NCBI RefSeq assembly: GCF_011745625.1
Contig: NW_027191461.1
Coordinates: forward strand, 186,001-250,000
Length of the DNA: 64,000 nt
Direction of reading: 5' to 3'
DNA from: Cladosporium halotolerans
Taxonomy: Eukaryota
The notes under the pieces: generated by a model
Seen by the model: the letters and a program-made list of their open reading frames with translations, nothing else
Databases searched by the model: none
What the model was told of the DNA's origin: nothing
Program-made: the position numbers and the translations under genes
In this document: piece after piece, positions 10,377-13,101 of the stretch
Numbering within the stretch: the stretch's first letter is position 1
Layout: every line of letters begins with the position of its first letter

Positions 10377-12205
10377 ATGTCCAAAACATTTTCCACCAGC
10401 GACGTGGCGTCGCACAACAAGCCTGATAATCTCTACATCATCGTCGACCAGGACGTCTACGACTTGACCAAGTTCCAGGATGAGCACCCTGGAGGAAAGA
10501 AGAGTGAGCGATCTTGTGCAGCTACAAAAGAATGAATAGTCTGACATGCATGCACAGTCCTCCAGCGTGTTGCCGGCAAGGATGCCAGCAAGCAGTTCTG
10601 GAAATACCACAACGAGTCCATCTTGAAGAAGTACCAGAAGCAGCTGCAAGTCGGCTCCCTCGATTCGAAGCCCAAGGCCGCCGCTCCTCCCACGCCGCCT
10701 GCGACTCCGCCCGCGGAGAAGAAAGAGAAGGTCAAGCCACAAGCAGAGCCAGGCGTCGTCGCACCCGCCCCGGGTCCGGCTGCTGAGGAGGAGGCCGAGG
10801 CGATGGATTCATTCGGCGACTTGATCCCTTACGCAGATCCCTCTTGGTACCAAAGCTACCACACTCCTTATTTCAACCAGACCCATGCAGACCTTCGAGC
10901 TGAGATTCGCCAATGGATGGAGGACGAGATCATGCCGAACGTCACCGAGTGGGACGAGGCAAAGAAGGTTCCGGACAGCGTGTACAAGACTATGGGCGAG
11001 CGTGGCTGGTTGGCTGGCCTTCTCGGCGTCCACCCCTACCCCACACATCTCGTGAAGAACCCGCCCAAGAGCGTCCCTGCAGAGAAGTGGGATCTGTTCC
11101 ACGAGCTGCTGATCACCGATGAGCTGTCTCGCTCCGGCTCCGGAGGCTTTGTCTGGAATGTGCTCGGTGGATTCGGAATCGGTTGCCCTCCCGTTTACAA
11201 ACACGGAAAGAAGGCTCTCAAGGACCGCATCCTGCCTGGAATTCTGAGTGGCGACAAGCGCATTTGCCTTGCCATCACTGAGCCTGATGCTGGATCTGAT
11301 GTCGCGAATCTGACTTGCGAGGCCAAGCTCAGTGAGGACGGCAAGCACTACATTGTCAATGGTGAGAAGAAATGGATCACAAACGGCATTTGGTGAGTAC
11401 TTCTCCGCATCTTTTACCACCCCAATTACTCATATATCCCTACAGGTCCGACTATTTCACCACTGCCGTCCGCACAAGCGACAAGGGCATGAACGGCATC
11501 TCCGTCCTGCTGATCGAGCGTAGCTTCGGCGGCGTCAGCACCCGCCGCATGGACTGCCAGGGTGTCTGGTCCAGCGGTACCACCTACATCACCTTCGAAG
11601 ACGTCAAGGTGCCCGTCGAGAACCTGATCGGCAAGGAGAACCAGGGCTTCAAGGTCATCATGACCAACTTCAACCACGAGCGTATCGGCATCATCATCCA
11701 GGCTGTCCGCTTTGCGCGTGTCTGCTACGAGGAGAGCGTCAAGTACGCCAACAAGCGCCGCACTTTCGGCCAGAAGCTCATCAACCACGCTGTGATTCGC
11801 ATGAAGCTTGCGCACATGGCCAGACAGATTGAGGCTTCGTACTCATGGCTTGAAAGCTTGATCTACCAGTGCCAGAAGATGAACGACACCGAGGCCATGC
11901 TGAAGCTGGGCGGTGCGATTGCCGGCTGCAAGGCGCAGGCGACGACCACTTTCGAATTCTGCGCACGCGAGGCGTCCCAGATCTTCGGAGGTCTGAGTTA
12001 CTCTCGCGGTGGCCAGGGTGCTAAGGTCGAGAGGTTGTACCGTGACGTCAGGGCATATGCCATCCCTGGTGGTTCAGAAGTGAGTATCACACCAGTCATT
12101 CATTCTAACAATCGAGCTTAACTAACCAACGCATAGGAAATCATGCTTGACTTGAGCATGAGGCAGGCACTGCGTGTGCACAAGGCGTTGGGCATGAAGC
12201 TATAG
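10377..12205 (+). CDS. Acyl-CoA dehydrogenase with N-terminal cytochrome b5-like heme domain
   Basis: N-terminus VASHNKPDNLYIIVDQDVYDLTKFQDEHPGG...FWKYH (b5 fold, both heme His present). ACAD motifs LAITEPDAGSD, NGEKKWITNG, RDVRAYAIPGGSEEI. Three introns; TAG 12203-12205. Confidence 0.92.
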
Positions 12206-12401
12206 ATGGTCTCGTGAGCGATTCGACAGGGCGAATATAGCATGCCACGTCGCCCCACGGCTTTCGAATAACACAAAGTCTGAAACAAAATGGTGGACAT
12301 CTTACATTTTCATGATGCTGACCGCGGGTGCCTGTCCCACTCGAGCACGTGATCTCAGCCCAACCCCTCCCCCCTCCCTTTTTCCTCCCACAGCAAAAAG
12401 C

Positions 12402-12597
12402 AAAAAGACTCGCCTTACACCGGATTCGAACCCGGCAAAAGAACCACCTCACCTCGTTCGGGGGGTGTCAAGAAAACCACTGGTTAAGGTGATTTTGCTT
12501 TCGGTGGTTGTGCCAGGTCAGCAGTCCTCGATGACTGGCGAGGCCGACCCAGGGGGTCTCCGTCATAGTGCTTTCCACTGCGCCACATGACCGAGTC
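12402..12597 (-). ncRNA. Putative structured RNA polymerase III ncRNA (tRNA-type internal promoter, not a tRNA)
   Basis: A box TGGCGCAGTGG (12585-12575), B box GGTTCGAATCC (12432-12422), terminators TTTTT-GC-TTTTT from 12406. 5' GACTCG pairs with the 3' CGAGTC directly before the T run; several internal helices. Confidence 0.7.
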
Positions 12598-13101
12598 GCC
12601 TACTCATGCTTCTGGTTATGTCATACGCAACTGCACAACAATATATATGTGGAAATTGAGGCATGTGATTGCGTGGGGTCCGTGAGCGGGTGTGGGGCTG
12701 GGCGTGGGGGTGATGTGAGGTTAGTGAAGTGAGGTTAGCGATTCCACCTTACTGCATCTTGCCAGTCACTTCGTCGCCAGATGTATACGTAGTGATAAGG
12801 TCCAATGTATGCCTCTTTTATAACACTATCGTACAAGTTCTATTGGGATGCATCCGGCAATTCATCTTGTCAGACTGATGCTGTATGGCGACCAGGAACA
12901 AATGCTGCAAGGCCAGTCTGTCGGCCACAATCGGGTGATCTGTATGGAGAAGCGCCAGACTGGCACGCTTGCTGTTTCGATGCTTGTCCTCTTGTCGCGT
13001 GTCTCAGAGCTTCCAGCAAGATCGAGACCTGCACAGACTCCCTCCCCAGCCTCAAAAGCGTGTATAGTTCTGTATCTCCCTTACCTCCTACCGTCTCCCT
13101 C

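What the first reader, a model, noticed from the sequence alone, without database searches (positions are those of the whole stretch)
12402..12597. Candidate unannotated structured Pol III ncRNA with tRNA-like D- and T-loops but no tRNA cloverleaf
Seen on the minus strand, between the convergent ACAD and BNA4 genes: a consensus A box TGGCGCAGTGG (12585-12575), a consensus B box GGTTCGAATCC (12432-12422) about 140 nt downstream, and tandem T5 terminators (TTTTT GC TTTTT). The ends pair (GACTCG 12597-12592 with CGAGTC 12412-12407) immediately before the T run. Inside are four elements. (i) A GTCAT-GTG / CAC-T-ATGAC hairpin carrying the A box at its apex. (ii) A 10-bp helix CTGGGTCGGC (12552-12543) / GCTGACCTGG (12522-12513). 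(iii) A three-way junction closed by AACCACC (12509-12503) / GGTGGTT (12448-12442), containing AAAATCAC/GTGGTTTT and CACC/GGTG hairpins. (iv) A GCCGG/CCGGT hairpin with the T-loop-like GTTCGAAT. The would-be acceptor strands (GGTCATG vs GTAAGGC) do not pair and no anticodon arm forms, so this is not an intron-containing tRNA. I see no SRP, RNase P/MRP, U6 or 5S signature. Inference: a ~195-nt Pol III RNA organised like vault/VA RNAs (terminal stem, internal A/B boxes), possibly mimicking the tRNA elbow. I cannot match it to a fungal family I know.
Basis: partly seen in the sequence, partly recalled or inferred. Interest (0 to 1): 0.82.

Follow-up and report, generated by a model that had tools for sequence, protein, structure and literature searches.

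The report
Fungal Pol III gene, not tRNA
Between two convergent fungal genes lies what looks like a small RNA gene read by RNA polymerase III. It carries tRNA-style promoter boxes, is not a tRNA, and matches no catalogued RNA family; its fold and its function remain unproven.

Summary
All the stated motifs are present on the minus strand. There is an exact A box (12585-12575), an exact B box (12432-12422) 142 nt downstream, and T5-GC-T5 (12406-12395). Each box occurs exactly once in the 64 kb. ARAGORN finds no tRNA, even with introns allowed. Its one low-threshold call is chance: 272 of 300 shuffles give one too. Rfam 15 gives no relevant hit.

Contigs from RNA libraries show a syntenic orthologue about 87% identical. 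One 211-nt contig covers 12390-12600, almost exactly the predicted unit. Other contigs run across both predicted ends, so transcription as a discrete RNA is not shown.

The proposed architecture holds only in part. The fold is no more stable than shuffles (z -1.35 and -1.14). In the orthologue, every changed pair in the short local hairpins, T arm included, keeps pairing. Every changed pair in the terminal stem, helix ii and the junction-closing helix breaks.

The D-loop and T-loop likeness is what a type-2 promoter looks like. It is not evidence of elbow mimicry.

Best reading: a conserved Pol III gene for a roughly 200-nt non-tRNA RNA, single copy as far as seen, probably of tRNA ancestry, function unknown. 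Copy number and wider phylogeny could not be tested. Interest is moderate.

The parts
12395..12605 (-). Whole predicted Pol III transcription unit, about 200-207 nt. Start is predicted near 12601-12605; the end lies in T5 at 12406-12402 or in the backup T5 at 12399-12395.
   Evidence: Sequence. One RNA-library contig of 211 nt lies at 12390-12600 (X17 record 8). The start site is inferred from the usual distance of about 18-20 nt upstream of the A box in yeast tRNA genes (recalled).
12641..12648 (-). ATATATAT, a TATA-like stretch about 40-47 nt upstream of the predicted start. A second AT-rich stretch, TATGACATAA, lies at 12626-12617. Both are candidate TFIIIB sites (inferred).
   Evidence: The close relative X15 record 4 shows no listed difference between 12622 and 12651. 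Its listed differences are at 12621, 12652, 12671, 12672 and 12677.
12575..12585 (-). A box TGGCGCAGTGG, an exact match to the tRNA-type consensus.
   Evidence: Only exact copy in the window. In the orthologue X16 record 7 the second base changes and one base is inserted just upstream, while GCGCAGTGG is kept.
12562..12591 (-). Hairpin i: lower stem GUCAU(G)/(U)AUGAC, with the A box in its apical part.
   Evidence: Two changed pairs in the orthologue keep pairing: U-A to U-G at 12590:12563, and G-U to G-C at 12586:12567. The top GUG/CAC loses one pair.
12513..12552 (-). The inner 26 nt (12544-12519) are unchanged in the orthologue; the outer helix is not kept.
   Evidence: 4 changed pairs in helix ii all break. 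A 26-nt run without change is within expectation for about 23 differences in 250 nt (my arithmetic).
12473..12496 (-). Central hairpin 1: AAAAUCAC / GUGGUUUU, 8 bp.
   Evidence: One changed pair keeps pairing (A-U to G-U at 12490:12479). A 3-nt deletion falls in the loop.
12450..12467 (-). Central hairpin 2: CACC / GGUG, 4 bp.
   Evidence: One changed pair keeps pairing (C-G to U-G at 12465:12452).
12419..12436 (-). T-arm-like hairpin GCCGG / CCGGU around the B box GGTTCGAATCC (12432-12422).
   Evidence: Only exact B box in the window. Two changed pairs in the orthologue both keep pairing as G-U. One of them is the second-last C of the B box.
12395..12406 (-). Tandem terminators TTTTT GC TTTTT.
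   Evidence: Unchanged in the orthologue (0 listed differences in 12370-12406). UUUUGCUUU (12405-12397) is also exactly complementary to AAAGCAAAA (12501-12493) (pair I5).

Best explanation
This is a conserved gene of the RNA polymerase III type-2 (tRNA-like internal promoter) class. As far as could be seen it is single-copy. It makes an RNA of about 200 nt that is not a tRNA and belongs to no catalogued family.

How it most likely works:
- TFIIIC binds the A box (12585-12575) and the B box (12432-12422), which lie 142 bp apart.
- TFIIIC places TFIIIB on the AT-rich DNA upstream.
- Pol III starts near 12601-12605 and stops in the first T5 (12406-12402) or the backup T5 (12399-12395).
- The transcript carries a 3' oligo-U and a set of short local hairpins. 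One bears the A-box sequence, two are central, and one is T-arm-like.

The gene most likely arose from a tRNA gene that lost its cloverleaf and gained about 120 nt between the boxes.

What is shown: the promoter and terminator anatomy, the absence of a tRNA fold, the absence of any known family, a syntenic orthologue, and presence in RNA libraries.

What is inferred: transcription by Pol III, the ends of the RNA, its stability, and any function. My working guess is a stable small RNP that first binds La and uses its T arm as a handle for tRNA-binding proteins. A side effect would be a TFIIIC/TFIIIB block standing between the two convergent Pol II genes.
For: 1. Promoter and terminator.
- Exact A and B boxes, each unique in 64 kb, in the right order and strand, followed 17 nt later by T5-GC-T5.

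2. Not a tRNA.
- ARAGORN finds 0 genes in the window by default and 0 with introns up to 200 nt.
- The single -ps80 call is chance: 272 of 300 shuffles with the T arm kept also give a call at -ps80. The real element gives none at -ps85, -ps90 or -ps95.

3. No known family.
- Rfam gathering search of the whole window: 0 matches.
- E-value mode up to 10 gave 2 irrelevant matches and 3 irrelevant matches.

4. Conservation in place.
- X16 record 7 aligns over 12370-12620 with 27 other letters and 7 gap letters in 251 positions. Its continuation beyond 12370 is recognisably the same flank, by my reading of the loose-end letters. It is therefore an orthologue and not a dispersed copy.
- In the close relative X15 record 4, 2 differences fall in the 159 nt inside the unit, against 5 listed in the 111 nt upstream (Fisher p 0.07-0.13).
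- A contig of similar depth in the same run (X16 record 5) differs by 12 of 71 in the last ACAD exon, against 27 of 251 for the element. This is not significant (p 0.21).

5. RNA libraries.
- The libraries hold real RNA of these fungi: the ACAD last intron is spliced out in contigs of X15 and X16.
- One 211-nt contig (X17 record 8) lies at 12390-12600, within 1-5 nt of the predicted start and 5 nt past the second T5.

6. Local hairpins.
- 5 changed pairs in lower hairpin i, the two central hairpins and the T arm all keep pairing, through changes that give G-U. A sixth, G-U to G-C, also keeps pairing but depends on an alternative closing pair. These changes would be mismatches on the plus strand.
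- The two-sequence conservation index is higher on the minus strand (0.73-0.79) than on the plus strand (0.62-0.66).
Against: 1. The fold is no more stable than shuffles: z -1.35 and -1.14.

2. Column shuffles of the two-sequence alignment reach the observed conservation index in 26.5% of 200 trials.

3. Random substitutions of the same types preserve the predicted structure as well as the observed ones do. The fraction of random sets at or below the observed value is 0.5-0.6 on four measures.

4. All 8 changed pairs in the long-range or upper helices break: terminal stem 2, helix ii 4, junction-closing helix 1, top of hairpin i 1. One caveat applies: the 5' strand of the terminal stem lies in the part of X16 record 7 where differences were apparently not listed.

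5. The promoter boxes are no better conserved than the body. One substitution falls in each box in the orthologue, and the 5' part (12545-12590) is the most diverged at 19.6%, against 6.5% for the centre.

6. RNA-library contigs run across both predicted ends. X15 record 4 spans 12439-12708, across the predicted start. X16 record 7 runs through both T runs and 113 nt further.

7. The contigs carry no strand information, and the ACAD 3' UTR on the other strand reaches at least 12391-12435 (X16 record 6, X20 record 9). Nothing therefore shows a discrete minus-strand RNA.

8. T5 may be a weak terminator in fungi, and two internal T4 runs (12476-12473, 12440-12437) lie in the body. The terminator lengths are recalled.

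9. Copy number in the genome could not be measured, because no genome is held.
Confidence: 0.6

Rival explanations
1. A tRNA-gene relic or extra TFIIIC/Pol III site whose value lies at the DNA level. The bound TFIIIC/TFIIIB complex separates the convergent ACAD and monooxygenase genes, for example by stopping Pol II read-through. Any RNA made is an unstable by-product.
For: - It lies between the 3' ends of two convergent genes, 197 nt from the ACAD stop codon and about 500 nt from the other stop.
- The ACAD 3' UTR contigs end at or just inside the unit's terminator and T arm (12391, 12435).
- There is no statistical support for a conserved global RNA fold.
- Pol II roadblocks at tRNA genes are known in budding yeast (recalled).
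Against: - A pure DNA-level site should conserve the two boxes and let the 142 nt between them drift. Here the centre is the best conserved part (6.5% events) and each box carries a change.
- Changed pairs in the local hairpins keep pairing through G-U, which is specific to the minus strand.
- A 211-nt RNA-library contig matches the unit.
Confidence: 0.2
2. A tRNA-derived SINE, or a single domesticated copy of one.
For: - An A box plus a B box and a non-tRNA body are what tRNA-derived SINEs carry.
- Such SINEs are described in Aspergillus fumigatus (PMC5063351; search listing and abstract only).
- Genome copy number could not be measured.
Against: - It occurs once in 64 kb.
- No direct repeats flank the unit. 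One search found 7 short direct-repeat families and none brackets 12395-12605.
- The T run follows the body directly, with no A-rich or simple-repeat tail.
- The orthologue sits in the same flank.
- The 4 runs laid gave at most 1 contig each over the element, all with this locus's flanks.
Confidence: 0.07
3. A Pol III-transcribed precursor of small RNAs (milRNA-like), as at Neurospora milR loci. Tracts within the transcript would be cut out by RNase Z and Dicer.
For: - Pol III makes the main Neurospora milRNAs.
- milR-4 comes from a transcript that contains tRNAs and needs RNase Z (PMC3547838; abstract and passages read).
- The unit has a T arm and several hairpins.
Against: - The longest local helices are 8-10 bp, too short for a Dicer substrate.
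- No acceptor-like stem next to the T arm is supported.
- No small-RNA data were available.
Confidence: 0.05
4. A known RNA (SRP, RNase P/MRP, U6, vault, Y RNA, snoRNA or an odd tRNA) too diverged for the models. Alternatively, only a conserved 3' UTR element of the ACAD mRNA on the plus strand, with the boxes there by chance.
For: - Rfam models can miss diverged fungal RNAs.
- RNA contigs tile 12137-12708 and could all come from plus-strand transcripts.
- The 37 nt downstream of the unit (12370-12406) show no listed difference in the orthologue.
Against: - No Rfam match came even at E up to 10 with lax filters.
- I see no ACAGAGA, Sm site, C/D or H/ACA box arrangement, or SRP helix-8 motif by eye (motifs recalled).
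- Two exact 11-mers plus a terminator by chance is negligible.
- The G-U-keeping changes favour the minus strand.
Confidence: 0.05

Closest known systems
tRNA genes (Pol III type-2 promoter; Rfam RF00005)
   Same: Exact A box and B box, a T-arm hairpin around the B box, and a T-run terminator shortly after. The sequence around the A box resembles a D arm (GCGC/GCAC).
   Different: No cloverleaf: no acceptor stem and no anticodon arm. The boxes are 142 nt apart rather than about 30-60 (typical range recalled). ARAGORN and the Rfam tRNA model do not call it.
Non-tRNA Pol III RNAs with internal A/B boxes: vault RNA, adenovirus VA RNA, EBER; rodent BC1 and 4.5SI, which derive from tRNA (recalled)
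   Same: A small RNA gene with internal A and B boxes and an oligo-T terminator. A tRNA-derived origin is plausible. The two ends can pair in the reference sequence.
   Different: No sequence or model match. It is about twice the length of vault RNA. The terminal stem is not kept in the orthologue as far as visible. Vault proteins are not known in fungi (recalled, not tested).
Budding-yeast non-tRNA Pol III units with A/B boxes: SCR1, the RPR1 leader, SNR52, ZOD1, RNA170 (recalled)
   Same: Fungal Pol III genes that use tRNA-type boxes outside a tRNA.
   Different: No homology detected. The Rfam SRP, RNase P and snoRNA models do not hit. Here the boxes sit at the two ends of the RNA rather than in a leader.
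Bacterial YrlA Y RNAs (tRNA mimics bound by Ro60; PMC4201824 and bioRxiv 10.1101/312249, search listing and abstracts only)
   Same: A non-tRNA RNA that carries D-loop-like and T-loop-like modules between paired ends.
   Different: YrlA is bacterial and not made by Pol III. No Rfam match here. No Ro60-binding helix was identified. Here the D/T likeness is already explained by the promoter.
Neurospora Pol III-transcribed milRNA precursors (PMC3547838, passages read)
   Same: Filamentous-fungus Pol III units other than plain tRNA genes. A tRNA-type moiety is part of the transcript at milR-4.
   Different: milR-1 has no A or B box. milR-4 lies between real tRNA-Ala genes. Here there is no real tRNA and no long hairpin.
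tRNA-derived SINEs of fungi (AfuSINE2; PMC5063351, listing and abstract only)
   Same: A tRNA-related head with A and B boxes and a non-tRNA body.
   Different: No target-site duplication, a terminator directly at the end, a syntenic orthologue, and one copy in the window.

Membership tests
Pol III type-2 (tRNA-like internal promoter) gene | A box matching TRGCNNAGTGG | tested here: met
   TGGCGCAGTGG at 12585-12575, the only exact copy in 64 kb.
Pol III type-2 (tRNA-like internal promoter) gene | B box matching GGTTCGANTCC downstream on the same strand | tested here: met
   GGTTCGAATCC at 12432-12422, the only exact copy. It lies 142 nt after the A box, longer than in tRNA genes but within what TFIIIC is reported to tolerate (recalled).
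Pol III type-2 (tRNA-like internal promoter) gene | Oligo-T terminator shortly after the B box | tested here: met
   T5-GC-T5 at 12406-12395, 17 nt after the B box. It is kept in the orthologue.
Pol III type-2 (tRNA-like internal promoter) gene | Occupancy by TFIIIC and Pol III, and a Pol III-dependent transcript with defined ends | not testable with these tools
   Only unstranded contigs from RNA libraries were available. One covers 12390-12600; others bridge both predicted ends.
tRNA (RF00005) | Cloverleaf with acceptor stem and anticodon arm, with or without a canonical intron | tested here: not met
   ARAGORN gives 0 by default and 0 with introns. There is no Rfam tRNA hit at E up to 10. 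The -ps80 call is matched by 272 of 300 shuffles.
tRNA-derived SINE | Many dispersed copies | not testable with these tools
   No genome is held. There is one copy in the window. The 4 runs laid showed only this locus.
tRNA-derived SINE | Target-site duplications and an A-rich or repeat tail | tested here: not met
   No flanking direct repeat among the 7 families found. The body ends directly in the T run.
Vault RNA, Y RNA/YrlA, SRP, RNase P/MRP, U6, 5S, snoRNAs (Rfam families) | A match to the family's covariance model | tested here: not met
   0 matches at gathering score in the window. Only 2 and 3 irrelevant weak matches came at E up to 10.
tRNA-elbow mimic (YrlA-like) | D-loop/T-loop tertiary pairing on a scaffold that brings the two loops together | not testable with these tools
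   The GG of the A-box loop and the T loop are kept in the orthologue, but they are promoter elements. The long-range helices that would bring them together are not kept.
Pol III milRNA precursor | A long hairpin giving discrete small RNAs of about 19-25 nt | tested here: not met
   The longest local helices are 8-10 bp. The small-RNA half of the feature could not be tested.

The most novel reading that the evidence does not exclude
A previously undescribed class of stable Pol III RNA in filamentous ascomycetes. It would be a non-tRNA scaffold that keeps a working tRNA elbow (D-loop-like plus T-loop) and uses it to bind or titrate tRNA-binding proteins. That would make it a eukaryotic counterpart of the bacterial tRNA-mimicking Y RNA YrlA, conserved in place between an acyl-CoA dehydrogenase gene and the neighbouring monooxygenase gene.
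Probability: 0.1. Interest if true: 0.8.

Novelty: new variant of a known kind. Interest (0 to 1): 0.5.

Why it matters
My six literature searches found no survey of the Pol III transcriptome of filamentous fungi (sequence strings). The known fungal non-tRNA Pol III RNAs are the housekeeping ones, a few budding-yeast oddities, and the Neurospora milRNA loci.

A conserved, single-copy, tRNA-derived Pol III gene with a body of about 200 nt would add a new RNA family to fungi. It would also be a clean natural case of a tRNA gene turned into something else while keeping its promoter. The promoter boxes give an easy handle for knocking it out by point mutation.

If instead it works at the DNA level, it is a natural example of a Pol III unit placed between convergent Pol II genes.

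Either way it is a modest advance, not a paradigm change.

Tried and rejected
- Whole genome. None is held, so there is no copy count.

- Homologue searches.
  - The metagenome scan with A box - N120-150 - B box - N10-30 - T5 gave 47 loci. None shares the body. By my reading of the 47 printed sequences, most are adjacent tRNA genes or chance matches.
  - The best candidates were L011, L012, L013 and L023. Their middle region has no similarity to the element beyond shuffles: global z 0.43, local z -0.71 (alignment).
  - A more specific pattern found 0 matches in genome contigs and 0 in viral contigs.
  - Earlier findings of this scan returned nothing relevant.
  - Sequence strings in papers: 0 papers.

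- tRNA with an intron. Rejected. The alternative acceptor GCCUCGC/GUAAGGC (6 of 7 pairs) is at chance level by my arithmetic, about 1.7 such matches expected, and by the shuffle control.

- Constrained folds. A tRNA-like acceptor plus T arm costs 9.5. Neither result is decisive.

- Strand and structure tests on two sequences. Not significant.

- Absence of cover. In X17 only 12390-12600 of the 1001 nt laid has cover, and 12709-13100 has no cover in any of the 4 runs.

- Loop-tail pairing CCUUA/UAAGG. Rejected, because the loop letters are deleted in the orthologue.

- By eye I found no C/D, H/ACA, Sm-site, U6, SRP or RNase P signatures.

- The paper on 15 fungal RNA motifs (PMC5640933, 'find' passages only) has nothing on Pol III units.
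Full report
**Setting**

The window is fungal in character, with short introns and typical fungal genes.
- On the plus strand a cytochrome-b5/acyl-CoA dehydrogenase fusion gene runs from about 10293. It has Pfam Cyt-b5, Acyl-CoA_dh_N, _M and _1 domains.
- Its last intron, about 12083-12136, is spliced out in RNA-library contigs. Its stop codon is at 12203-12205.
- On the minus strand an FAD-dependent monooxygenase runs 14688-13102 (Pfam FAD_binding_3).
- A mitochondrial-type EF-G gene follows on the plus strand.
- The element lies on the minus strand in the roughly 900-nt gap between the two convergent genes. Its end is 197 nt from the ACAD stop, and its start is about 500 nt downstream of the other stop.

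**The observation**

- The A box TGGCGCAGTGG (12585-12575) and the B box GGTTCGAATCC (12432-12422) are each the only exact copy in 64 kb.
- With one mismatch allowed, each pattern gives 2 matches, against 1.86 and 1.07 expected from shuffles. It is the exactness, the order, the shared strand and the T5-GC-T5 17 nt after the B box that put the set beyond chance.
- By my arithmetic an exact 11-mer is expected about 0.03 times per window.
- Upstream lie AT-rich stretches: ATATATAT at 12648-12641 and TATGACATAA at 12626-12617. They could seat TFIIIB.
- From the usual spacing in yeast tRNA genes (recalled), the start should fall near 12601-12605.

**Not a tRNA, not a known family**

- ARAGORN finds nothing in the window, and nothing with introns of up to 200 nt allowed.
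- At a lowered threshold (-ps80) it draws a 'tRNA-Ala' from 12544 to 12411 with a 57-nt intron.
- This call is empty. With the T arm kept and the rest shuffled, 272 of 300 sequences also give a call at -ps80, 27 of 300 at -ps90, and 0 of 300 at the default. The real element gives none at -ps85, -ps90 or -ps95.
- Rfam 15 gives 0 matches at gathering score in the window.
- At E up to 10 it gives only weak, irrelevant matches. One search gave HOTTIP_1 on a G-rich stretch outside the element, and Guanidine-III. One search gave mir-342, Guanidine-III and alpha_tmRNA.

**Relatives and RNA libraries**

No genome is held for the window.

A search of public runs found 20 rows holding part of a 1001-nt stretch around the element. 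Nine held half or more of its words, and six were RNA libraries with small shares. I laid four RNA runs.
- X17 record 8 is a 211-nt contig that lies at 12390-12600 with 2 differences. This is within a few bases of the predicted unit.
- X16 record 7 is a 359-nt contig. It aligns over 12370-12620 with 27 other letters and 7 gap letters, then goes on for 113 nt that fall below the likeness threshold.
- The first 30 of those letters are still recognisably the window's own flank, by my reading. This is therefore a syntenic orthologue of about 87% identity and not a dispersed repeat.
- X15 record 4 covers 12439-12708.
- X16 record 6 covers 12137-12391 and X20 record 9 covers 12231-12435. These cover the ACAD 3' UTR and reach the element's terminator and T arm.

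Contigs carry no strand and no reliable ends. X15 record 4 bridges the predicted start, and X16 record 7 bridges both T runs. The libraries show the region is present in RNA preparations, and one contig fits the unit. They do not show a discrete minus-strand RNA.

**Conservation**

In the orthologue, events (listed substitutions plus indels) are distributed as follows:

| Segment | Events | Length (nt) | Percent |
|---|---|---|---|
| Downstream flank, 12370-12406 | 0 | 37 | 0 |
| 3' tail, 12407-12418 | 2 | 12 | 16.7 |
| T arm, 12419-12436 | 2 | 18 | 11.1 |
| Centre, 12437-12544 | 7 | 108 | 6.5 |
| 5' part, 12545-12590 | 9 | 46 | 19.6 |

- The 5' part is more diverged than 12411-12544 (9 of 46 against 9 of 134, p 0.02).
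- Each promoter box carries one substitution, so the boxes are no better kept than the body.
- In the closer relative X15 record 4, 2 differences fall in the 159 nt inside the unit, against 5 listed in the 111 nt upstream (p 0.07-0.13).
- A contig of similar depth in X16 differs by 12 of 71 in the last ACAD exon, against 27 of 251 for the element (p 0.21).
- Taken together, the element looks 2-4 times better kept than its flanks. The samples are small and no single comparison is significant.

**Structure**

- The fold is no more stable than dinucleotide shuffles. For 196 nt, z is -1.35 and 19 of 200 shuffles fold at least as well. For 210 nt, z is -1.14 and 28 of 200 do so.
- The conservation index for reference plus orthologue is 0.73-0.79 on the minus strand and 0.62-0.66 on the plus strand. 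This is a mild strand signal, but column shuffles reach the minus-strand value in 26.5% of 200 trials.
- Random substitutions of the same types do as little harm to the predicted structure as the observed ones do (fractions 0.5-0.6 on four measures).

Helix by helix:
- The short local hairpins do well. Lower hairpin i, central hairpin 1, central hairpin 2 and the T arm contain 5 changed pairs, or 6 if the alternative closing pair 12586:12567 is counted. All keep pairing, mostly by turning into G-U.
- A seventh such change lies in a 9-bp complementarity between AAAGCAAAA (12501-12493) and the terminator's UUUUGCUUU (12405-12397).
- The long-range and upper helices do badly. The counts of changed pairs are terminal stem 2, helix ii 4 (two of them by deletion), junction-closing helix 1, and top of hairpin i 1. 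All 8 break.
- One caveat: the 5' strand of the terminal stem lies within about 30 nt of the contig's end. Differences there seem not to be listed (27 counted, 16 listed), so compensating changes cannot be excluded.

Several CUCG/CGAG words in the RNA allow alternative pairings of similar energy. The fold cannot be settled from two sequences.

**What it is**

The best reading is a Pol III type-2 gene for a non-tRNA RNA of about 200 nt, kept in place in related fungi and probably descended from a tRNA gene. Three features point to that descent. The stretch around the A box still resembles a D arm. The T arm is intact. The boxes are the tRNA consensus.

By itself it says nothing about mimicry of the tRNA elbow.

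Function is unknown. I lean to a stable small RNP, because the centre of the RNA is better kept than the boxes and the local hairpins tolerate only pair-keeping changes. A DNA-level role is the main rival, at about 0.2. In that role a TFIIIC/TFIIIB complex would stand between the ends of two convergent Pol II genes, with the ACAD 3' UTR ending right at the unit. The two roles are not exclusive.

A SINE, a small-RNA precursor, and a diverged known family are each unlikely for the reasons given under the rivals.

**Comparison with the known**

- It works like other non-tRNA Pol III genes with internal boxes: vault, VA, EBER, BC1, 4.5SI, and the yeast units SCR1, SNR52, ZOD1 and RNA170 (recalled). 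It is a member of none by the model searches.
- In filamentous fungi, the nearest described things are the Pol III-transcribed milRNA loci of Neurospora (PMC3547838, passages read) and the tRNA-derived SINEs of Aspergillus fumigatus (PMC5063351, abstract only).
- The bacterial tRNA-mimicking Y RNA YrlA (PMC4201824, abstract only) is the closest analogue to the boldest reading.
- My six literature searches found no description of this RNA. They also found no survey of Pol III genes in filamentous fungi. Subscription-journal papers are not in that library.

**Verdict**

This is a real and well-formed Pol III-type unit, new as a family, and of moderate interest. The claims of a defined global architecture and of elbow mimicry are not supported by what could be tested. 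Transcription, copy number and phylogenetic spread remain open. They need fungal genome databases and bench work that these tools do not offer.

Noticed in passing
L023:2980-3190 (+); the same locus in L011, L012 and L013: Four related metagenome contigs hold a unit of about 185 nt with a similar build. Their ORFs look fungal by eye; this was not tested. An A box sits in a weak tRNA-Ile(GAT)-like part (ARAGORN; Rfam tRNA 34.7 bits, mismatched acceptor). It is followed directly by a second tRNA-like part that has its own B box but no A box. A T run comes only after the second part. The ends GGTCT/AGACT can pair. The middle is not homologous to the window element. It may be a dimeric tRNA-like Pol III unit.
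   Followed up: partly
window 12397-12405 and 12493-12501: The terminator region UUUUGCUUU is exactly complementary, over 9 nt, to the internal AAAGCAAAA. The one orthologue change there (12497) keeps pairing as G-U. If the RNA ends in the second T5, its U-rich tail could fold back on this A-rich tract. This pairing competes with central hairpin 1.
   Followed up: partly
window 12370-12406: The 37 nt from the T runs into the G/A-rich stretch downstream show no listed difference in the ~87% orthologue. Beyond 12370 likeness drops below 80%. This could be the poly(A)-site region of the ACAD mRNA on the other strand.
   Followed up: no
window 12083-12205 (+): The last intron of the cytochrome-b5/acyl-CoA dehydrogenase gene (about 12083-12136) is spliced out in RNA contigs of two runs. 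The final exon encodes 22 residues ending at the stop codon 12203-12205. The 3' UTR contigs reach 12391 and 12435, antisense to the element's 3' end.
   Followed up: yes
window 12532-12542 and 12758-12768: The unchanged apical loop region of helix ii (CUCGCCAGUCA) is complementary in 10 of 11 positions to a stretch 215 nt upstream on the same strand, downstream of the monooxygenase stop. It is probably chance: it is one of 9 short inverted pairs found in 751 nt.
   Followed up: no
window 12489-12502 and 12562-12575: An internal direct repeat, 79% identical over 14 nt: GAAAGCAAAAUCAC and GAAAGCACUAUGAC on the minus strand. This hints at a small duplication inside the element.
   Followed up: no
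window 12318-12378 (-): A weak Rfam match to HOTTIP_1 (21.2 bits, E 0.022, gathering score 50) falls on a G-rich low-complexity stretch. It is an unstructured model match and not meaningful.
   Followed up: yes
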